A stretch of 64,000 nucleotides of DNA from Gemmatimonadota bacterium (GTDB taxonomy: Bacteria; Gemmatimonadota; Gemmatimonadetes; Longimicrobiales; Gaopeijiaceae). The position numbers were made by a program, and so were the translations under genes. Positions 3,186-49,192 of this stretch are shown here, one piece after another. Under the pieces are notes generated by a model that searched no databases, had not been told where the DNA came from, and worked only from the letters and a program-made list of their open reading frames with translations. Positions within the stretch are counted from its first letter, which is position 1, and each line of letters opens with the position of its first letter. Location: positions 68,801 through 132,800 of the forward strand of contig JBBDRS010000038.1 in the NCBI GenBank assembly GCA_040905325.1, in the 5' to 3' direction.

Positions 3186-3992
3186 CTACAGCTCCTCGGG
3201 GCGGACATGCCCACCGTCGCCGCCGGGGAAGGTCGGCTCGTCGCGCTCCTCCTGGACGAGCTCGCCGGGCCGGGGGGGCTTCCGATGCGTACCGCCGGTC
3301 TGCTCCGGGAGCGCCAAGCGCACCTTTTCCGCGTCCTCGCCGCCGTCCGCAATGATCGAGGCCAGGACCGCCTGCGGGTCCTCGCCGGCCGCAATTCGGG
3401 CCACCGCCACGTCCGGGAGCTTGGTGAAATCAACCTTTGCCACCACCGACCGAATGTCGACACGCCGGCTGTATCTGTTCGGGGCGTGCGACTCAGCCAA
3501 GCGCTCAAGGAGTCGGTCGGAATGTTCGCGCTCGGTGTAGATCCTCGGGAGAAAACCTTCACAATCGCGCTGCGGACTCGGGCCAGGCTCGCCCTCGGGG
3601 GTGAGAGGATGGTCCTCTCGGGCGCCGCCGCAGCGTTCGCACCAGCGAGGGTCGCGGGATGGTAGGCCGCTTTTCTTATCGAACCGGACACGCTCCACGC
3701 CGTGAACTCCACGCTCGATCATCGCGGCCTCGAGTACGTCGCCGTACATCTCCCGGGCCAGCTCAAGGGCCTCCTGGAACTCGGGGTCGAACCGCCACCC
3801 GGAGTTGTAGAGCGAATCGACGTGCAGCCCGCTCGCCCTTGCGGCCTCCCCCTTTTTTCCGCAAAGCGCGTAGGCTCTCAGGAAACCCCTCTTCCTTGGA
3901 TTCTCGATGTGCCGGAAGGCACTCTCCACCATCTCTTCCGCGCCTGCGGGCGTGGGGCTCCTGTCTGATCCGCTCACCCTCCCTCCTCCCAT
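3186..3992 (-). CDS. phage terminase small-subunit-like HTH protein
   Basis: The N-terminal pattern FLRAYALCGKKGEAARASGLHVDSLYNSGWRFDPEFQEALELAREMYGDVLEAAMIERGVHG followed by ...HSDRLLERLAESHAPNRYSRR resembles the common TerS layout (HTH, then E..RRA..G, then SD.LL..LLKA..P.KY). A Cys-containing insertion (CERCGG...) sits between them. The start could be ATG 3932. Confidence 0.45.
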   Translation of the reverse strand: MGGGRVSGSDRSPTPAGAEEMVESAFRHIENPRKRGFLRAYALCGKKGEAARASGLHVDSLYNSGWRFDPEFQEALELAREMYGDVLEAAMIERGVHGVERVRFDKKSGLPSRDPRWCERCGGAREDHPLTPEGEPGPSPQRDCEGFLPRIYTEREHSDRLLERLAESHAPNRYSRRVDIRSVVAKVDFTKLPDVAVARIAAGEDPQAVLASIIADGGEDAEKVRLALPEQTGGTHRKPPRPGELVQEERDEPTFPGGDGGHVRPEEL

Positions 3993-4099
3993 GCCTGGCG
4001 TTTGTTGTTACGGACACCGTCGTCCTGCGGCACGAGGGGCCACAGCCGGGCGGGCGCTGGGCGGGCGCAGCCAAGCATGAGGCGACCCTTCCGAACCCC

Positions 4100-41625: not shown

Positions 41626-41892
41626 GTCCGTTTCCCGGTGTCTGGTGAACAGTTCTGGACTCGCCCGGAGAAGCAGGTCCGATGCCAGATGCTCCTCAAT
41701 GGCGGGGGCGACTGCGTGAGCGGCCCCACTAGCATTCTGCGGGTCCCTGATGGCACCCGAACGTCCCCCCATTCCGAAAGCTAATGGCTGGGGTCCCCGC
41801 CCGCATCACTTTTCTATCCGGCCTGGGCCGGCCGCAGGGAGCCGCATGAGATGGAGGCCTCGGCCGCAAAACACCACGCTCCCAGCCTTGCT

Positions 41893-42435
41893 CTACCTCG
41901 AGGCCCTCACCTCCATGGGCTGAAGCACGTCGACCGGAGCCGGAGCCTGTGCGTCTGGCAACCACCGGTACCACAGCGTTCCCGCCACCGCGACCAACAC
42001 GTCATCCACGCAGGCATCACCTGATCCCTCCGCGAGCCCCGCCTCCGTTACCCGTCCCTCCCATCCCACCTTCAACTTTACGGTGGCCCGGCTGCCTTCC
42101 AGATCTGCGCGCCTCGCCCAGTGGCACTCCGGCTCCAAGGGAATCCCCGCGATGTTCACCGCTCGCGCCTCGAGCACTCGTTCCGGGGGTTCCTGGCGCT
42201 CCACCCCGTCTCCCAAGAGGATCCTCGGCGGGCCGAACGTAACATCGACCCATCTCACCTCCCCCTCTTCGCCACCCACCACCTTGGGGGGCACGGAGGA
42301 CCGGTCGGGAAGGACAGTCCGGAACTCAGGGGAAAACCAGAACAATCCCGCGTGTAGGAGCACTGCAACGCCGAGTGACCACCCAAAGGTCCGGCGGTGC
42401 GTTCTCCGCAACTCCTCCGATCGACGCCCCATCAC
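41893..42435 (-). CDS. TonB-like / energy-transducer C-terminal-like membrane-anchored protein
   Basis: Single N-terminal TM (FGWSLGVAVLLHAGLFWF), a linker, then a ~80-aa C-terminal domain (ATVKLKVGWEGRVTEAGLAEGSGDACVDDVLVAV). Weak resemblance only. Confidence 0.35.
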   Translation of the reverse strand: MMGRRSEELRRTHRRTFGWSLGVAVLLHAGLFWFSPEFRTVLPDRSSVPPKVVGGEEGEVRWVDVTFGPPRILLGDGVERQEPPERVLEARAVNIAGIPLEPECHWARRADLEGSRATVKLKVGWEGRVTEAGLAEGSGDACVDDVLVAVAGTLWYRWLPDAQAPAPVDVLQPMEVRASR

Positions 42436-42470
42436 ATCTCCAGTCGAATCCCGGGCGCAGTGGTGCTACC

Positions 42471-42771
42471 CTAGAAGGCCGTTGAAGAAGTAGCGGGGCC
42501 ACCGTTGGGAGCGCCGGACCACCGCTGACGCGGTGGTGCCCCCCGAATCGTAGGCGGCTCGTCGACGGCATAGCCGTGGCTACGTCGAGGCGAGCCAACG
42601 ACCGAGGCGGGTCCCTGCCGCCCCAACCCGCAGGGCGAAGGGGGGTTGCGGCCCTGGATCGTCGTTGGAGCCCCTCCCCGATGCTACCGCATCGCCTTCG
42701 GCGCTCCGCCTCGACCAGGAACCGCAAGACCCCTTCGCGGTGGCCCCGCTACTTCTTCAACGGCCTTCTAG
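42471..42771. mobile_element. MITE-like element: 301 bp, perfect 34-bp terminal inverted repeats, TACC flanking duplication
   Basis: ctagaaggccgttgaagaagtagcggggccaccg at 42471-42504 is the exact reverse complement of 42738-42771. TACC occurs at 42467-42470 and 42772-42775. The interior is rich in hairpins. An alternative reading is a structured ncRNA. Confidence 0.55.
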
Positions 42772-44108
42772 TACCGGACCGAACCGGGAAACCGGTTGTT
42801 CACCACGTTCGCGAAAGTCGATCCCCAGCGGTAGTTGAAACCGAGGGACGCCTGGTGCTGATAGGAGGAGGGGAGTGACCGGCGGCCGAGGAGGATGTCC
42901 TCATCGTCGATCCCGCCCAGCGGAGTGTGAATGTTGTCGTTCACGAACGCCGTCTCCGCCGACACGTTGACCTCGAGTCCGCGGGTGATCCGGTAGCTCA
43001 CGTCGCCGCTCAGGTTGAGTGAGTACAATGCAGTGTCGTGGAGGTACTGCGAGGTGCTGACACCGACTCCCGCATTCCCCCATTCCTCCTGGGCCCGGTA
43101 CTGGATTCCGACACGGTGCTGCGGAAGCATGTCGGTGGTGACGCCATAGAGCGTCTGTTCGTGATACGAGGAGTACTCCCCTCCGATCGCGTAGTGGGCA
43201 ATCATCTGCCGGCGGTTGGCCTGCTCGTAGGGGTAGTAGTTGTACTCCACCGCGGGGGCGATATTCAGGCGGAGTTCCTGATTGTTTTGCACCGAATTGT
43301 TGGCGGACACGTCGAATCCGACGGACACGTGCGGGGTCACGCTCCTGACGACGAGCGCGGATGCCCGGTAGAAGTTGATGTCGTTGTCCAGCCAACGGCC
43401 GTCGGAAAGCTGGCGACGATCGGTTCGGAGGTTGACGAACCCACTCACCTGAACCTTCCATTCTTCGGTAACCCGACCCGCGCTGAGACTCGGGTTGATC
43501 CTGGAACTGCGCTGCGTCTCTCGAAGATCCAGGTTTCCGGAGAGGCCGAAGCGGAAGGTCCAGTAATTCCAGGGGTCGTAGAGCGCCGACTCGGACCCGT
43601 TCGCAAGAGCGTCTTCCTCGCTTTCGGCACCGGCCGCCGGGCCGGTGAATCCGATTTCGAAGTCGCCTCCCATCCCGGACTGCACCGCGTAGCGGAGCAG
43701 CCCGATCCGGAGGGCATGGGTCAGGCCGTCCATGACCTCTGCCCTTACGTCCGTCCCCGCAGACGTGTAGGTCAGCGCGTCGGAGATCCCGGACGCTGGA
43801 CCTCGACCGATGAAATCGAACGTGTACTGCAAGCCATCGCCACCGACGCCGGTACTCGTAAGGATTACGTGCACATCCGAGTCCGCCCTATCGCGGACCC
43901 AGTTGACGAACTGGATTTCGGTGCGGAAGTGATCGTCGTCGCAGTTGCGCCGGGTCTGACAGTCCAGGAATACCCTCGGCACCTCACGAGCGGTGGCTCG
44001 GCTCTCGGAGTGAAGCTGAGCCCCGGCCGGGGAAGCCCCCAGCAGGAGGAGCGCACCCGCAAGGCCGAGGGCGGACGTGCTGGTCCCCTTCCATCGCGTC
44101 CTGTTCAT
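42768..44108 (-). CDS. predicted outer-membrane beta-barrel protein, paralog B
   Basis: Signal MNRTRWKGTSTSALGLAGALLLLGASPAGAQ, then RVFLDCQTRRNCDDDHFRTEIQFVNWVRDR...VHVILTS, DPWNYWTF, VEYNYYPYEQA, ITRGLEVNV and ANVVNNRF. This is collinear with 32872-34197. Confidence 0.6.
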   Translation of the reverse strand: MNRTRWKGTSTSALGLAGALLLLGASPAGAQLHSESRATAREVPRVFLDCQTRRNCDDDHFRTEIQFVNWVRDRADSDVHVILTSTGVGGDGLQYTFDFIGRGPASGISDALTYTSAGTDVRAEVMDGLTHALRIGLLRYAVQSGMGGDFEIGFTGPAAGAESEEDALANGSESALYDPWNYWTFRFGLSGNLDLRETQRSSRINPSLSAGRVTEEWKVQVSGFVNLRTDRRQLSDGRWLDNDINFYRASALVVRSVTPHVSVGFDVSANNSVQNNQELRLNIAPAVEYNYYPYEQANRRQMIAHYAIGGEYSSYHEQTLYGVTTDMLPQHRVGIQYRAQEEWGNAGVGVSTSQYLHDTALYSLNLSGDVSYRITRGLEVNVSAETAFVNDNIHTPLGGIDDEDILLGRRSLPSSYQHQASLGFNYRWGSTFANVVNNRFPGSVRY

Positions 44109-44415
44109 CGATGTTGCAATCCGGCTCGAGAATGTATAGTAAGCGCCCCGAGGGGCGGCACATATCGAGGTGCGTCGGGCGACCCTCGGCTCACAGTGTA
44201 CAGCCAACGTACATGCTATGTCAACTCTGCGTATACCGCAGCGCAGGCGATCTACCCGTACCCTCTGGCCACGAACGCAATGCCGCGCGGTGGGCGGGCG
44301 CTACGACGTCAAATGTTTCCTCGGCTAAGATACCCATGGCTCCCGCAAGGGACCAGTACCCCACCAGTACCCCATCTGAGATGCGGGGCGGCCGTTTCGT
44401 TAAGTTCGGCAGTGC

Positions 44416-47400
44416 TCATCGCCTTTCCCCTCCGGCCCCCACGGGCTCAGCCTCCACCGAGGTCGCACCACGCTCCCCCTCACCGTCCAACTCGCCCGCG
44501 GTCGCAATCACCGGCACCGCTTCTCGGCCGTCGCCCACGTACGTTCTCTGAACCCAGTCCGACGCGTCGTCCACCAGGGAGTACATGACCGGCACCACCA
44601 GCAGCGTCAGCACGGTGGCAAAGATGATTCCGACGATGACGGCGATGGCCATGGGGCCCCACCAGGCCGCCTGCTCCCCTCCCCAGTAGAGGTCGGGATC
44701 GAGCTGGGTGAAGAGGCCGGAAAAGTTGAAGTTGAGCCCGATGGCCAGAGGAACGAGTCCGAGAGCCGTCGTCACCGCGGTGAGAACCACCGGACGAAAC
44801 CGGGTCATCCCTCCCTGGACGAGGGCCTCGCGCCGATCCATCCCGTCTCGGTCCCGGAGGATGTCGATGTAGTCGATGAGGACGATGGCGTTGTTCACGA
44901 CGATCCCCGCCAGGGATATGATCCCGACCCCGGTCATGATGATGACGAAGGGCATCTGGAAGACAATGAGCCCCAGGAAGACCCCCACCGTCGACATGAT
45001 CACGGAGGTGAGGATGATCAGCGGCTTGACCACTGAGTTGAACTGGCTGATGAGGATGAACCCGATCAGCATGAGAGCGATGGCGAATGCCATGGTGAGG
45101 AACTCCTGCGCATCCGTCTGATCTTCCAGCTGACCGGTGTACCGAAGCTGGTATCCAGGCGGGACCCGCTCCGCCGCGAAGATCGCGAGCGTCTCCTGCA
45201 CCTCCATGATCACGGCATTCTGGTTGTAGCCGGCACGTACCTCCGAGGAAACCGTCGCCACCCGGTCCATGTCCTTTCGTCGGATGGAGCCGAGCCCCTC
45301 GCCCACCTCCCAGCTGGCCACCGAGAGGAGGGGCACCTGATCCCCGGTCTCCGTGACCACCACCATGTCTTCCAGGGACGAGAGCTGGTCCCGAAAGCGA
45401 GGTGCCAACCGCACGGTGATATCGAACTCGTCGTTCCCTGTCCGATAGCGCGCAGCCTCGACCCCCTGGATCGCGCCCCGAATCGTGCTACCGACATCCG
45501 TGGTGGAGAGACCGAACAAGGCCGCCCGCTCCCGGTCCACGTGGACGGAGAGCTCGGGGCGGGCGTCGTCGAGATCGCTTGCCATCCCCACCAGCCGGTT
45601 CGACACGGGGGCGCTCCGCAGGATGGACAGCACCTCGTCGGCCAACTCCTTCAAGACGGCGGGGTCGTCGCCCGCGATCTCGATATTCACCGGTGCCCCG
45701 GTGGGCGGCCCCATGCTCGGCATGTCCGCGCGTACCTCGATCCCCGCCAGCCGCTGCCCCACTTCCTCCTGGATCACCGCCAGCGTCCGAAATGAGTCCT
45801 GTCCCCGGACTTCGTAGTCGACCATGGAGAGCATTATGCGCGCCTGGTTCTCAGCAGTGGCCCCGCCGGTGAACATGTTCCCCTCCCCGGCACCCACAGT
45901 GGCTACGACGGATTCCACATCGTCGAAGCCGCGCACTCCGCGTAGTTCCTCTTCGAGCCCTCTTGTCACCTCGTCGGTGACGGAGGCCCGGCTCCCCACC
46001 GGTGCCTCGACGTCGACCCAGAGCTGTGCGGGCGGCACGCCTTCGGGGAAGAACTCCACCCCGTGGTTCAGAGGGATGAATACAGCGAAGGTGCCCACGA
46101 ACACGACCGCGCAGAGTCCCAGGATCACGGCCCGATGGTCCAGCGCCCAGCGGAGGCTCCCTTCGTAGCTGCGGACCACGCGAGGCATCCCCTTCTTCTG
46201 GAAGCGCCTGCCCACCCGGTCCAGGACGAACCGGTGCACCAGGTAGAGGAAAACCCCCGTAAGGGTGAGCGACACCGCGGCCACCAAGTTCGCCAGTGCC
46301 ACGACGAGGAAGAGGGCCACGGCCCCCCCCACGAGCGTGCGGCGCGCAGCGCGAGTCATGGAACTACGCGGTCCCCCCTCCACCCGCATGAAGAGGGCGC
46401 AGAGTACCGGGAGGATGACGAGCGCCACGAAGAGCGAGCTCGAGAGGGTGATGATGAGGGTGAGAGGGAGGAACCGCATGAACTCGCCCACCACGTCCGG
46501 CCAGAACATGAGGGGAAGGAAGGCACCGAGAGTAGTAGCCGTGGCCGCGATGACCGGCATCGCAACTTCACCAGTGGCCTTCCGGGCCGCCATGGTGGAG
46601 CTCCAACCCTCCTCCATGTACCGGTAGATGTTCTCTACCACCACGATGGCGTTGTCCACCAGCATCCCCAGCGCCAGGATGAGGCTGAAGAGGACGACCA
46701 TGTTCATCGTGATCCCCATGGCCGAGAGGACCACGAAGGAGAGGAGCATCGAGGTGGGGATGGCGAGCGCGACGAAGACCGAGGTGCGGACTCCGAGGAA
46801 GAAGAGGAGCACGGCGATGATGAGGAGGAGCCCGGAGATGATGTTGTTTTCCAGCGAACTCACCATCATGTGGATGTCGCGTGACTGATCAGAGGTGACG
46901 GAGATCGCGGTTGTGGGGGGGAGGCCGGGCTCTGCCTCCGCCAGGATCGCTTTCACCCGCTCTGCCGCCTCGATGATGTTCTCTCCTGCACGCTTCACCA
47001 CGTCGAGGGTCACGACGGGCGCCCCGTTCAGTCGCGCGAAGGAGGTGCGGTCCGCAAACCCGAACTCCACGCTGGCAATGTCCCGGACGTAGACGGCGCG
47101 TCCGTCGAAAGTGCCCACCACCAACTCTTCGATGATGGAGGGATCCACGAACTCCCCGTCCACTCGAACCAGGTAGTTGACGGAGCCCACCTCGATGGAT
47201 CCGCCGGGGATGTTCACGTTCTCGTTGCGGATCGCGTCCACGACGTCGTTCAGAGCGAGGCCATAGTACTTGAGCCGGGAGAGATCCACGTCGACCTGTA
47301 CCTCGCGGTCGAGCCCTCCCCTCAGGTCTACCCGCAGGATCCCCGGTACCTGCTCCATACGGTCCTGGAGGTCCTCAGCAATCTCCTTCAGGCGAACCAG

Positions 47401-47982
47401 GCCATACTCCCCGGCCAGGTTCACCTGCATGATGGGCGCCTCGGAGACGTCGATCTCGACGATCGAGGGATCTTCGGCGTCCGAAGGGAGCTCCGGGCGC
47501 GCCAGGTCCACCTTCTCCCTCACCTGCTGCAGGGCGTCATTCATGTCCACCGACGTAGCGAACTCCACGGTGATGGACGAATAGCCCTCGACGGAGGTGG
47601 AAAGCATCTCCTGAACGTCCGAGATGGTGTTGAGCTCGTCCTCCAGTGGCCGGGTCACCAGCGTCTCGATGTCGGCCGGCGACACCCCGGGGTAGATGGT
47701 GTTGACCACCAACATGGGGATGGCGACCTGGGGCGCGCTCTCCTTCGGGATGTTCACGTACGCCACGAACCCGGCGATGGCAATGAGGACAAAAAGCATT
47801 ACCACGCTGGTGAGGTGCCGCAGCGCAAAGCTCGTGAGCCTGAACTCCTTGAAACGCGCCAGGAAGTCGGGATCGTCCTCGGGAATGCGCCCCGGGGTCC
47901 CGGGAAGATCCAGGGAAGAAGGCGTCCCCCGGGGGTGCGAACGTTCTTCCGTCGGGCGCTCCTTTCCGGACTCCTCAGTCAT
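44416..47982 (-). CDS. RND efflux transporter permease (AcrB/HAE1-type)
   Basis: ~1188 aa. 12-TM architecture with two large periplasmic loops and typical segments (PQVAIPMLVVNTIYPGVSPADIE..., ...ALGMLVDNAIVVVENI..., ...IVVNNAIVLIDY...). Confidence 0.9.
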   Translation of the reverse strand: MTEESGKERPTEERSHPRGTPSSLDLPGTPGRIPEDDPDFLARFKEFRLTSFALRHLTSVVMLFVLIAIAGFVAYVNIPKESAPQVAIPMLVVNTIYPGVSPADIETLVTRPLEDELNTISDVQEMLSTSVEGYSSITVEFATSVDMNDALQQVREKVDLARPELPSDAEDPSIVEIDVSEAPIMQVNLAGEYGLVRLKEIAEDLQDRMEQVPGILRVDLRGGLDREVQVDVDLSRLKYYGLALNDVVDAIRNENVNIPGGSIEVGSVNYLVRVDGEFVDPSIIEELVVGTFDGRAVYVRDIASVEFGFADRTSFARLNGAPVVTLDVVKRAGENIIEAAERVKAILAEAEPGLPPTTAISVTSDQSRDIHMMVSSLENNIISGLLLIIAVLLFFLGVRTSVFVALAIPTSMLLSFVVLSAMGITMNMVVLFSLILALGMLVDNAIVVVENIYRYMEEGWSSTMAARKATGEVAMPVIAATATTLGAFLPLMFWPDVVGEFMRFLPLTLIITLSSSLFVALVILPVLCALFMRVEGGPRSSMTRAARRTLVGGAVALFLVVALANLVAAVSLTLTGVFLYLVHRFVLDRVGRRFQKKGMPRVVRSYEGSLRWALDHRAVILGLCAVVFVGTFAVFIPLNHGVEFFPEGVPPAQLWVDVEAPVGSRASVTDEVTRGLEEELRGVRGFDDVESVVATVGAGEGNMFTGGATAENQARIMLSMVDYEVRGQDSFRTLAVIQEEVGQRLAGIEVRADMPSMGPPTGAPVNIEIAGDDPAVLKELADEVLSILRSAPVSNRLVGMASDLDDARPELSVHVDRERAALFGLSTTDVGSTIRGAIQGVEAARYRTGNDEFDITVRLAPRFRDQLSSLEDMVVVTETGDQVPLLSVASWEVGEGLGSIRRKDMDRVATVSSEVRAGYNQNAVIMEVQETLAIFAAERVPPGYQLRYTGQLEDQTDAQEFLTMAFAIALMLIGFILISQFNSVVKPLIILTSVIMSTVGVFLGLIVFQMPFVIIMTGVGIISLAGIVVNNAIVLIDYIDILRDRDGMDRREALVQGGMTRFRPVVLTAVTTALGLVPLAIGLNFNFSGLFTQLDPDLYWGGEQAAWWGPMAIAVIVGIIFATVLTLLVVPVMYSLVDDASDWVQRTYVGDGREAVPVIATAGELDGEGERGATSVEAEPVGAGGERR

Positions 47983-49192
47983 CCGGCTGCTCCCGTGTTC
48001 CTACGACCTGGATCCGATCCCCGTTCGCCACCTGGCTCTGCCCGGCCACGATCAGACGATCTCCAGCGGCAAGGCCATTTTCCACCACGACCCGGTTCGC
48101 CTGCGATCCGGAGAGGGATAGCCGGCGCACCTCAGCGAACTCACTCCCGTCGCGCTCGACGGCGACAAAGGCCACGAACCCCTCCTCGACCCGCACCACG
48201 GCCTCCTGGGGGATGACCACCACCTCGTTCCGCACGTTCCGGATGATCTCGAGGTTCGCGACCATCTCCGGCTTGATGACATTGTTCCGGTTGGGAACCC
48301 GCAACTCCACCGGAAAGGTGCGGTTGGCAGGATTGACCGTGGCACCGACGAAGGTGAGTGGGCCCTCAAACTCCTGGTCCGGGAGAACGTCGAAGGTGAC
48401 TCGGGCGCTGGAACCGGTACGAATCTCAGCGGCGAACCTCTCGGGAACACCTCCGGTGACCTTCACGGGATCCACCTGAACCACGCGGGCGACGGGGGTT
48501 CCGGGGGACACCATCGTCCCCTCCTCCACCAAACGCTCCTCCACGATCCCGGCGATGGGAGCCCGGACCACTGTGCGGTCGAGCCTCTCCTGAAGGGCAT
48601 CCAGAGCGGCCCCGGACTGCTCCGCCTGCGACCGGGCCTCGAGGTAGGCGAGCTCGGATCCGACGCTGTCGTCTTCGTAGAGCCGGCGTCGGCGCTCCCA
48701 GGTCTCTCGCGCCAGATCCGCACGGGCCCTGGCCTCTCGCACCTGGGCTTGAAGGGTGCCGTCATCGATCCGCGCGAGGACGTCCCCCGCCTGGACCGAC
48801 GAGCCCTGTGCCACGGGCAAGTCGCGTATGACGCCTCCCTCCTCGGCCGCCACGAGTACATCGCGTTCCGCTTGCACGGTGCCGGAGATCCGAGCGGTCT
48901 CTGTGAAGGAACTGGTACGGAGCTCCTGCACTTCGACATTGATTACGCGCTCGTAGGCCCCCTCGGCCTGTCCATCGGCCTCCCCGTCCGCCTGCGCGTC
49001 GGTCCCGCACGCGACCACGAGCACGAAGGGCATGGGCAGCAGGGCTCGAATCACTCCACCCCACCCCCTCGGCATCCGACTTTTCCCTGACATTCGCAAC
49101 ATCCTCTGGTCATCCTTTTGGTTCGGGACGGGATCTTCCGCGCGATGCTCCATCCGGGGTCCGTCAGCGTCCGGGAAGCGGAACCTCCCCAA
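47975..49192 (-). CDS. RND efflux periplasmic adaptor (MFP/HlyD family)
   Basis: Lipobox-like VLVVACG, a lipoyl-like segment (VQAGDVLARIDDGTLQAQV), a coiled-coil hairpin and beta-barrel segments. The start is probably internal (ATG 49153 or 49102), given the TolC stop at 49164. Confidence 0.85.
   Translation of the reverse strand: MGRFRFPDADGPRMEHRAEDPVPNQKDDQRMLRMSGKSRMPRGWGGVIRALLPMPFVLVVACGTDAQADGEADGQAEGAYERVINVEVQELRTSSFTETARISGTVQAERDVLVAAEEGGVIRDLPVAQGSSVQAGDVLARIDDGTLQAQVREARARADLARETWERRRRLYEDDSVGSELAYLEARSQAEQSGAALDALQERLDRTVVRAPIAGIVEERLVEEGTMVSPGTPVARVVQVDPVKVTGGVPERFAAEIRTGSSARVTFDVLPDQEFEGPLTFVGATVNPANRTFPVELRVPNRNNVIKPEMVANLEIIRNVRNEVVVIPQEAVVRVEEGFVAFVAVERDGSEFAEVRRLSLSGSQANRVVVENGLAAGDRLIVAGQSQVANGDRIQVVGTREQPDD

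What the first reader, a model, noticed from the sequence alone, without database searches (positions are those of the whole stretch)
42467..42775. 301-bp element with perfect 34-bp terminal inverted repeats and TACC flanking duplication, inserted at a gene's stop codon
The sequence ctagaaggccgttgaagaagtagcggggccaccg (42471-42504) is matched 34/34 by its reverse complement at 42738-42771. TACC flanks both ends. The 233-nt interior is packed with further hairpins: accaccgc/gcggtggt at 42520-42538; ggctcgtcgacg…cgtcgaggcgagcc at about 42556-42595; ccaacgac…gtcgttgg at about 42596-42678. There is no ORF. The outer CTAG of the right repeat supplies the stop codon, and the last base of the final Tyr codon, of OM paralog B. 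Removing the element plus one TACC would still leave an in-frame TAG, so the protein would end …GSVR* instead of …GSVRY*. Perfect long TIRs plus a TSD argue for a recently mobile MITE. The alternative is a novel, highly structured ncRNA closed by a 34-bp helix.
Basis: seen in the sequence. Interest (0 to 1): 0.6.

Follow-up and report, generated by a model that had tools for sequence, protein, structure and literature searches.

The report
Mobile MITE inserted at a stop codon
This is a 293-bp non-coding jumping element (a MITE) of a previously undescribed family from Gemmatimonadota; it landed in the CTAG that holds a gene's stop codon without changing the protein, so it is ordinary in kind but has an unusually conserved folded interior.

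Summary
The 34/34 inverted repeat and the TACC flanks are real, but the anatomy needs correcting. The outer CTAG of each "repeat" is the target-site duplication, the true terminal repeats are 30 bp, and TACC is a coincidence.

A related metagenome contig (flanks 91-92% identical in DNA) carries the empty site ...GGTA-CTAG-GGTA.... The protein therefore ends ...GSVRY* with or without the element.

The element is highly multicopy in Gemmatimonadota. One degenerate core pattern gave 87 stretches, about 29 of them in a single MAG, and read depth over the element is 10- to 100-fold that of its flanks.

Of 41 complete elements, 18 have identical flanking 4-mers: CTAG x13, TTAG x2, CTAA x2, CTTG x1.

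Its termini and CTAG duplication match 1.5-kb insertion sequences with DUF772 + DDE_Tnp_1 transposases (IS5/IS1182 type). These occur in Longimicrobiales and on a Mesorhizobium plasmid.

There is no Rfam match, no conserved ORF and no strand or orientation bias, so a one-strand ncRNA gene is not supported.

The interior remains unexplained. It consists of two inverted copies of a roughly 110-130-nt folded domain with strong compensatory changes, and the same domain occurs with at least five different terminal-repeat types.

Verdict: a new MITE family of a known kind.

The parts
42471..42474 (.). Left copy of the 4-bp target-site duplication, CTAG.
   Evidence: The empty site in L198 has a single CTAG that aligns to both 42471-42474 and 42768-42771. 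Identical flanking 4-mers occur in 18 of 41 elements.
42475..42504 (+). Left terminal inverted repeat, 30 bp (AAGGCCGTTGAAGAAGTAGCGGGGCCACCG). The outer ~18 bp are conserved in sequence. The inner ~12 bp are conserved only as a helix.
   Evidence: It is 17/20 identical to the right end of the 1505-bp Longimicrobiales IS.
42500..42629 (+). Left structured domain. It has a closing helix GTTGGG/CCCAAC, a subfamily-specific extra hairpin at 42518-42537 and a conserved hairpin at 42556-42595, flanked by the motifs AGGCGG and CCAACGAC.
   Evidence: Covariance model R1 scores 100 bits over its full length. Covariation of helices 2-6 is shown.
42633..42742 (-). Right structured domain, a diverged inverted copy of the left domain. 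Its hairpin core is GATGC-TACC-GCATC at 42680-42693.
   Evidence: R1 scores 56.1 bits, E 5.5e-9, over its full length on the minus strand. nhmmer gives E 1.9e-5. The motif lies ~56 nt from both ends in most copies.
42738..42767 (-). Right terminal inverted repeat, 30 bp.
42768..42771 (.). Right copy of the CTAG duplication. On the minus strand, 42768-42770 is the TAG stop codon of the upstream gene.
42768..44207 (-). Gene whose stop codon lies in the target. It is a conserved hypothetical protein and the last gene after the membrane-fusion protein (47978-49192) and an AcrB-type pump (44419-47982). It is possibly an outer-membrane beta-barrel. Homologues are ~446 aa, so the true start may be later than 44207.
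   Evidence: Pfam finds nothing for it, while AcrB and HlyD families match its neighbours. It has 340 homologues, all unnamed or called hypothetical, the few organism labels being Gemmatimonadota. There is a weak match to the TP0733 outer-membrane barrel family, E 3.6e-4, below the cutoff. No PDB relative was found.
41893..42435 (-). Next gene downstream on the same strand (180 aa, weak TonB C-terminal match). The insertion widened the spacer before it from 36 nt to 332 nt.
   Evidence: Gene calls in L198 place the stop at 2129 and the next start at 2166.

Best explanation
The element is a non-autonomous DNA transposon (a MITE) of a new family that is widespread in Gemmatimonadota.

Shown:
- It is an insertion relative to a closely related genome.
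- It duplicated the 4-bp target CTAG.
- It belongs to a multicopy family with conserved termini (CTAG|AAGGCYGTTGAAGAAGTA...).
- 1.5-kb insertion sequences encoding DUF772 + DDE_Tnp_1 transposases (IS5/IS1182 type) have nearly the same termini and the same CTAG duplication. They occur in the same phylum.

Inferred:
- Such a transposase binds the outer ~18 bp of the repeats in trans.
- It then moves the element into CTAG (more loosely YTAR) sites with a 4-bp staggered cut.

CTAG is about 16-fold depleted in this GC-rich genome, and each such site contains a TAG on both strands. Surviving insertions therefore often sit exactly on stop codons, as this one does. The duplication rebuilds the stop codon, so the protein is unchanged.

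The local consequence is about 297 extra base pairs in the operon. The spacer grows from 36 to 332 nt, and any read-through transcript would fold into a long stem.

The interior is two inverted copies of one folded domain. It is most likely an end-associated module that acts at the DNA level, as a hairpin or cruciform or as a protein-binding site that helps mobilisation or persistence. This last step is the least certain.
For: Empty site:
- L198 1-2129 aligns to window 44914-42768 and L198 2126-2718 aligns to 42474-41880. The shared CTAG is used twice.

Copy number:
- Word depth in run X1 is ~14 in the flanks against 135-1465 over the element. The element is also present in soda-lake and rhizosphere runs.
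- One core pattern hit 87 stretches, all in Gemmatimonadota MAGs, including ~26 full-length copies.

Target-site duplication:
- 18 of 41 elements have identical 4-mers on both sides. Five of these are non-palindromic direct repeats (TTAG/TTAG, CTAA/CTAA, CTTG/CTTG). None shows the mirror pattern expected if the 4-mer were part of the inverted repeat.

Short derivatives:
- Elements of 50-250 bp that share the termini but lack the full two-domain interior also have CTAG/CTAG flanks. The termini therefore appear sufficient for mobility.

Autonomous relatives:
- A 1504-bp IS on a Mesorhizobium plasmid has CTAG|CAGGCTGTTGAAGAAGTATC termini and an annotated IS5-family transposase.
- 1505-bp ISs in Longimicrobiales show CTAG/CTAG duplications in 8 of 9 copies. 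Their right end is 17/20 identical to the MITE end.
- The transposase matches Pfam DUF772 + DDE_Tnp_1, and its best NCBIfam matches are IS1182 and IS5.
- E. coli IS5 duplicates 5'-YTAR-3' (PMC5009759).

Target scarcity and stop codons:
- CTAG occurs 12 times in 64 kb against 195 expected.
- Of 24 flanks with a GC3-rich inward-facing ORF, 13 stop exactly in the duplication.
Against: - No autonomous element with exactly these termini was found in the window, in the MITE-rich MAGs or in ~1.2 Mb of their loci. Short-read MAGs may simply fail to assemble ISs.
- The MITE interior has no similarity to the interior of the related ISs, so it is not a simple deletion derivative.
- The interior is better conserved than the termini across orders (84-90% identity) and shows strong compensatory change. 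A purely selfish, decaying MITE does not require that.
- Mobilisation by the proposed transposase is untested.
Confidence: 0.85

Rival explanations
1. The element is a mobile MITE, but its ~110-130-nt folded domain is a functional cargo in its own right. It could be an RNA or single-stranded-DNA structure with a role for the host or for the transposon, such as transcript processing or stabilisation in either orientation, or recruitment of a host factor. This would explain why it is kept while the termini are exchanged.
For: - 47 of 82 predicted pairs show double compensatory changes. 96% of cells are paired, against 85% in shuffles and 37-50% when partners are slid.
- The same domain occurs with at least five terminal-repeat classes, including one with a 3-bp TNA duplication.
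- Interiors of a class-1 copy and a class-3 copy from one MAG are 91.9% identical.
- One-domain and two-domain versions both exist.
- There are weak full-length model hits inside TIR-flanked elements in Terriglobia.
- The two-fold symmetry would present one sense domain in a transcript of either direction.
Against: - There is no Rfam match, no promoter- or terminator-like site and no RNA run holding the sequence.
- Both strands fold equally well (-103.5 against -102.4 kcal/mol), and G-U against A-C on shared pairs is 28 against 21.
- Insertion orientation relative to inward-facing genes is 9 against 5 (my tally).
- Elements lacking the full two-domain interior also carry intact duplications.
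- Arm-to-arm correction in hairpins, or selection of master copies, could mimic covariation.
Confidence: 0.12
2. The element is a single-copy, highly structured non-coding RNA gene closed by a 34-bp helix.
For: The fold is very stable (z -13) and covariation is present.
Against: - The element is multicopy and found at unrelated loci.
- It is absent from the orthologous site in L198.
- It is flanked by a target-site duplication.
- It has no Rfam family and no strand asymmetry.
Confidence: 0.02
3. The element moves by a different mechanism, for example single-strand transposition of the IS200/IS605 type (a PATE) or REP/RAYT-type spread, in which hairpins rather than terminal repeats are recognised.
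For: Local hairpins are conserved by compensatory change. No exact autonomous partner was found.
Against: - Those systems make no target duplication and have no long terminal inverted repeats. This element has both.
- The termini and the duplication match DDE-type ISs.
Confidence: 0.01

Closest known systems
IS5 / IS1182-type insertion sequences (DUF772 + DDE_Tnp_1 transposases), e.g. E. coli IS5, the 1504-bp IS on Mesorhizobium pMspAR07c and the 1505-bp IS of Longimicrobiales MAGs
   Same: - 4-bp duplication of CTAG/YTAR.
- Terminal sequence CAGGCYGTKGAAGAAGT against AAGGCYGTTGAAGAAGT: 17/20 to the Longimicrobiales IS and 17/18 consensus to the Mesorhizobium IS.
- The Longimicrobiales IS is in the same phylum.
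   Different: - The element has no transposase gene.
- It is 293 bp rather than 1.5 kb.
- Its repeats extend to 30 bp.
- Its interior is unrelated to the IS interior.
- An exact-match partner was not found.
Bacterial MITEs that fold into long hairpins, such as Correia/NEMIS of Neisseria and ERIC of enterobacteria (from my own knowledge, not tested here)
   Same: - Small, non-coding, multicopy elements with terminal inverted repeats and short target duplications.
- Often found at gene ends and co-transcribed.
- Able to fold as RNA.
   Different: - Different termini, target (TA for Correia) and host phylum.
- This family has a two-domain, multi-helix interior that is shared between several terminal-repeat classes.
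Tourist-type MITEs of PIF/Harbinger, the eukaryotic relatives of IS5 (from my own knowledge)
   Same: - Non-autonomous partners of IS5-like DDE transposases.
- They share only termini with their partners.
- T-A-centred short target duplication.
   Different: - Eukaryotic elements with a 3-bp TWA duplication.
- No conserved structured interior is known.

Membership tests
MITE (miniature inverted-repeat transposable element) | Small size (under about 600 bp) with no coding capacity. | tested here: met
   The element is 293 bp. The longest open frames differ in frame and strand among 31 copies, and indels are not multiples of three.
MITE (miniature inverted-repeat transposable element) | Terminal inverted repeats. 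| tested here: met
   The 30-bp repeats are perfect in this copy. They are conserved across copies, with 97% of helix 1 cells paired.
MITE (miniature inverted-repeat transposable element) | Target-site duplication, shown against an empty site. | tested here: met
   The duplication is CTAG. The empty site in L198 has one CTAG. Identical flanking 4-mers occur in 18 of 41 elements.
MITE (miniature inverted-repeat transposable element) | Many dispersed copies. | tested here: met
   87 stretches match an exact core pattern, about 29 of them in MAG PLM2.Bin16. Depth over the element is 10- to 100-fold that of the flanks. There is only one copy in this 64-kb window.
MITE (miniature inverted-repeat transposable element) | An autonomous partner with the same termini. 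| tested here: inconclusive
   Related ISs with 17/20 identical ends and the same duplication occur in Longimicrobiales and Mesorhizobium. None with exact ends was seen in the MITE-rich genomes.
IS5 / IS1182 superfamily (as the mobilising system) | 4-bp duplication at YTAR/CTAG. | tested here: met
   The IS5 YTAR target is reported in PMC5009759. DR = 4 bp for the IS5 group and IS1182 is reported in PMC3281130.
IS5 / IS1182 superfamily (as the mobilising system) | Termini shared with elements that encode a DDE_Tnp_1-type transposase. | tested here: met
   Pfam finds DUF772 + DDE_Tnp_1. NCBIfam gives IS1182 at 192.6 bits and IS5_4 at 92.6 bits, both below their curated cutoffs. Ends are compared.
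IS5 / IS1182 superfamily (as the mobilising system) | Actual binding and mobilisation of the element by that transposase. | not testable with these tools
   This needs a transposition or binding assay.
Structured non-coding RNA gene | Match to a described RNA family. | tested here: not met
   Rfam 15 gives no match at E up to 1 on the window region. No match reaches the gathering score within the element copies of five other loci; the only match was a tRNA elsewhere in L079.
Structured non-coding RNA gene | Compensatory base changes that support a fold. | tested here: met
   47 of 82 pairs show double changes. The covariation score is 0.295, against 0.10 in shuffles and 0.04-0.06 when partners are slid.
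Structured non-coding RNA gene | One functional strand (G-U tolerated, A-C not) and an orientation bias. | tested here: not met
   Both strands fold equally well. G-U against A-C on shared pairs is 28 against 21. Orientation is 9 against 5.
Structured non-coding RNA gene | Evidence of a discrete transcript. | not testable with these tools
   No RNA run holds the sequence.
IS200/IS605-derived PATE or REP/REPIN | No target duplication and no long terminal inverted repeats. | tested here: not met
   This element has both features.

The most novel reading that the evidence does not exclude
The ~110-130-nt folded domain is an independent functional nucleic-acid module. It is present once or twice per element and conserved by compensatory change across Gemmatimonadales and Longimicrobiales, possibly also Terriglobia. 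It has been repeatedly repackaged between the ends of different IS5/IS1182-type transposons, with at least five terminal-repeat classes and both 4-bp CTAG and 3-bp TNA duplications. In other words, it is a structured cargo that uses MITE shells to spread, or that MITEs need in order to spread.
Probability: 0.15. Interest if true: 0.65.

Novelty: new member of a known kind. Interest (0 to 1): 0.35.

Why it matters
For annotation:
- It defines a previously undescribed, abundant repeat family that breaks Gemmatimonadota metagenome assemblies. Many copies lie at contig ends.
- It can be mistaken for an RNA gene.

For biology:
- A CTAG-targeting transposon in a GC-rich genome, where CTAG is 16-fold depleted, ends up on stop codons and rebuilds them. 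Such insertions are nearly harmless to the protein.

Open point:
- The folded interior domain is kept while the termini change. This is not expected of a simple MITE and can be tested directly with transposition assays and transcriptomes.

Tried and rejected
TACC as the duplication:
- Rejected by the empty site and by 40 other elements without matching outer flanks.

CTAG as part of the inverted repeat:
- Rejected by the direct, non-palindromic pairs TTAG/TTAG, CTAA/CTAA and CTTG/CTTG, with no mirror pairs.

A 2-bp TA or a 6-bp NCTAGN duplication:
- Considered and rejected on the same flank data.

Searches for the parent element that led nowhere:
- An exact 22-mer of this copy's repeat in GTDB genomes gave 0 hits.
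- Inverted pairs of the repeat 600-4000 bp apart in 196 loci gave nothing plausible.
- tblastn with E. coli InsH against the loci and the window found nothing.
- Long ORFs next to solo repeats or half elements are ordinary genes by the look of their translations (BioB/BioA-, GlpD-, MutS2- and sirtuin-like).
- The class-3 repeat occurs in only one MAG and has no IS.
- The transposase relic in L091 has no clear ends.

RNA evidence:
- No RNA runs hold the sequence.

Other checks:
- 'ccaacgac/gtcgttgg' as a helix has no covariation.
- No promoter- or terminator-like sites were found.
- Literature searches found nothing on MITEs in Gemmatimonadetes.
Full report
OBSERVATION

The arms 42471-42504 and 42738-42771 are 34/34 complementary. 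No dinucleotide-preserving shuffle of the window produces such a match, and there is no other copy in the 64 kb. TACC flanks both arms. The 301 nt fold far better than shuffles on both strands (z -13.2 and -12.1). The minus-strand ORF 42768-44207 ends ...GSVRY-TAG, with the TAG and the last base of the Tyr codon inside the right arm.

CONTEXT

The ORF is the last gene of a minus-strand RND efflux cluster. A HlyD-type fusion protein lies at 47978-49192 and an AcrB-type pump at 44419-47982. The ORF has no Pfam family and 340 homologues, all unnamed or called hypothetical; the few organism labels are Gemmatimonadota. It shows only a weak, sub-threshold likeness to an outer-membrane barrel family and has no PDB relative. 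The next gene on the same strand (41893-42435) has a weak TonB C-terminal match.

THE ELEMENT IS REPEATED AND MOBILE

- Contigs of public sediment and soda-lake runs laid on the region have word depth ~14 in the flanks but 135-1465 over the element. Similarity of the other copies stops at 42470/71 and 42771/72.
- A degenerate 29-nt core pattern hits 87 stretches in the one-genome-per-species collection. All are Gemmatimonadota MAGs and about 29 come from a single MAG. Many lie at contig ends.
- About 26 copies are full length, 276-355 bp and 71-88% identical to this one.

THE DECISIVE RESULT: AN EMPTY SITE

Protein P0001 is 94% identical to the ORF. Its contig, L198, reads ...ccggctcggtccggtaCTAGggtagcaccgctccgcccggg.... 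This is exactly the window's two flanks joined through one CTAG.

- BLAST aligns L198 1-2129 to window 44914-42768 (90.6% identity).
- It aligns L198 2126-2718 to window 42474-41880 (92.3% identity).
- The four bases 2126-2129 are used twice.

The target-site duplication is therefore CTAG, the repeats are 30 bp and the element proper is 293 bp (42475-42767). The protein ends ...GSVRY* in both alleles. The two TACC (GGTA on the gene's strand) were already present around the target.

A more distant orthologue, L199 (82% identical), ends ...GSVR*, has no CTAG there and carries no element.

FAMILY-WIDE CHECK OF THE DUPLICATION

Among 41 non-redundant complete elements that share the termini, 18 have identical 4-mers on both sides: CTAG x13, TTAG x2, CTAA x2, CTTG x1. 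The five non-palindromic pairs are direct repeats. No element shows the TTAG/CTAA mirror pattern expected if these bases belonged to the inverted repeat. Bases outside the 4-mer match only in the window copy, as expected by chance.

Elements of 50-250 bp with the same termini but without the full two-domain interior (some are deletion derivatives) also carry CTAG/CTAG. The termini therefore appear to be the part that matters for movement.

WHICH TRANSPOSON SYSTEM

E. coli IS5 is known to duplicate 5'-YTAR-3' (PMC5009759). Four-base duplications are typical of the IS5 group and of IS1182 (PMC3281130).

- A BLAST of the repeat against plasmids found a 1504-bp IS on Mesorhizobium pMspAR07c (locus L206, 3005-4508). 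It is flanked by CTAG on both sides, has ends CAGGCTGTTGAAGAAGTATC... and carries an annotated IS5-family transposase.
- Its protein found a transposase relic in a Longimicrobiales contig that also carries the MITE-type repeat.
- Searching with that relic found multicopy 1505-bp ISs in long-read Longimicrobiales genomes. Eight of nine examined copies have CTAG/CTAG. The right end, CAGGCCGTGGAAGAAGTGGC, is 17/20 identical to the MITE end AAGGCCGTTGAAGAAGTAGC.
- The 472-aa transposase has DUF772 + DDE_Tnp_1. Its best NCBIfam models are IS1182 and IS5, both below their curated cutoffs.
- The IS interior is unrelated to the MITE interior. The MITE shares only termini with its presumed partners.
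- An IS with exactly the MITE's ends was not found.

WHY A STOP CODON

- CTAG occurs 12 times in the window, two of them being this duplication, against 195 expected from base composition. All four YTAR words together occur 28 times against ~435 expected.
- Every CTAG contains TAG on both strands.
- Of 24 element flanks with a GC3-rich ORF reading towards the element, 13 stop exactly in the duplication, 6 stop 11-75 nt before it and 5 stop inside the repeat.
- In this copy the repeat also carries stops in the other two frames (TGA at +12, TAG at +20).

The stop-codon position is thus a consequence of the target word plus survival of harmless insertions. The only local effect that can be read from the sequence is that the spacer to the next gene grew from 36 to 332 nt.

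THE INTERIOR

An alignment of 31 full copies (A1) gives a consensus fold in which 47 of 82 pairs have double compensatory changes.

| Measure | Observed | Column shuffles | Partners slid |
|---|---|---|---|
| Cells paired | 96% | 85% | 37-50% |
| Pairs with double changes | 47 | 24.7 | 9-19 |

The outer ~18 bp of the repeat are conserved in sequence, while the inner ~12 bp are conserved only as a helix.

The fold gives no sign of a single functional strand:
- The reverse strand folds as well (-102.4 against -103.5 kcal/mol).
- On the 67 pairs shared by both strands, G-U and A-C occur 28 and 21 times.
- Each strand has its own conserved wobble positions.
- Orientation relative to inward-facing genes is 9 against 5.
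- There is no Rfam match, no promoter- or terminator-like site, no conserved ORF and no RNA run.

A covariance model built from the left half matches the right half on the opposite strand over its full length:
- 42500-42629 (+), 100 bits.
- 42633-42742 (-), 56 bits, E 5.5e-9 (nhmmer).

The element is therefore [repeat + domain] twice, head to head. This two-fold design fits a DNA-level, end-associated role better than an RNA gene.

WHAT REMAINS ODD

The same domain occurs with several terminal-repeat classes:
- Class 1: CTAG|AAGGCYGTTGAAGAAG, as in the window.
- Class 2: CTAG|CAGGCTGYTGAACTACTGGAGGG, in a Longimicrobiales MAG.
- Class 3: GAGGGTGTTTRCATACTACGAATGGG, in one MAG, with 3-bp duplications (TGA/TGA, TCA/TCA).
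- Class 4: CTAG|GGAAGCTCTGCACAAG. This end is 11/16 identical to the E. coli IS5 end.
- Class 5: CTAG|GAGGGTGATCGGAAAGGGGGG, on a one-domain element 0.8 kb from an IS copy.

Within one MAG, a class-1 interior and a class-3 interior are 91.9% identical. That is closer than class-1 copies of different genomes (77-85%). Interiors from different orders are 84-90% identical. Weak but full-length model hits lie inside repeat-flanked elements in Terriglobia loci fetched for this IS family; the L264 one sits ~90 nt beyond an IS end (29.6 and 24.5 bits).

Three explanations are possible and I could not separate them: interiors are homogenised within genomes, termini are swapped, or the domain is a selected module.

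VERDICT

The element is a real, recently inserted MITE of an undescribed Gemmatimonadota family. It has IS5/IS1182-type termini and a CTAG duplication. No paper on such elements in this phylum was found.

Noticed in passing
whole window: CTAG is about 16-fold under-represented (12 against 195 expected). All YTAR words together are about 15-fold under-represented (28 against ~435 expected). I did not examine whether this reflects restriction-type avoidance, very-short-patch repair or pressure from CTAG-targeting transposons.
   Followed up: partly
L198 2719-3397, against window 41842-41880: The empty-site contig carries ~680 bp that the window lacks. It holds two small called genes, one of which my reading suggests is an RsgA-like C-terminal fragment. 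This is a second indel between the two genomes, 0.6 kb from the MITE site, and it has no MITE-like ends.
   Followed up: partly
L205 3005-3905 (Sinorhizobium meliloti pSymA 1011113-1012013): This is a 901-bp element with ends CTAG|CAGGCTGTTGAAGAAG...CTTTTTCAACACCCTG|CTAG and no annotation in the table. The same 21-mer end occurs in 48 Sinorhizobium plasmid records. It is probably a short or defective relative of the same IS clade.
   Followed up: no
L054 ~1786-1829, L110 4774, L203 7182, L202 6723, L045 3284, L063 2361: These are solo stubs of ~40 nt (terminal repeat plus CCGTTGGGAGCGCC) that break off at about the same internal point and are followed by unrelated sequence. They may be one-ended remnants or recombination products, and are unexplained.
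   Followed up: partly
L202 6760-8000: Next to a solo class-3 end lies a non-coding stretch with tandem CGGGGACGGGGGGAGCACCCGCT-like units and a duplicated AT-richer block (TATTGCACAGTTTTTGTGCATAGG...). Its nature is unknown.
   Followed up: no
window 42768-44207 (-) and 340 homologues: This is a Gemmatimonadota-specific protein family of ~450 aa with no Pfam domain. In the three loci checked (window, L199, L200) it sits after an AcrB-type pump gene. It may be an unrecognised outer-membrane partner of RND pumps. It ends in an aromatic residue here, but in ...GSVR in the orthologue on L199.
   Followed up: partly
L264 3800-4127 and L268 ~3806-4090 (Terriglobia): These are repeat-flanked ~300-bp elements in loci fetched for IS copies of the same family; the L264 one lies ~90 nt beyond an IS end. 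Their interiors weakly match the Gemmatimonadota domain model. The domain may therefore extend to Acidobacteriota.
   Followed up: partly
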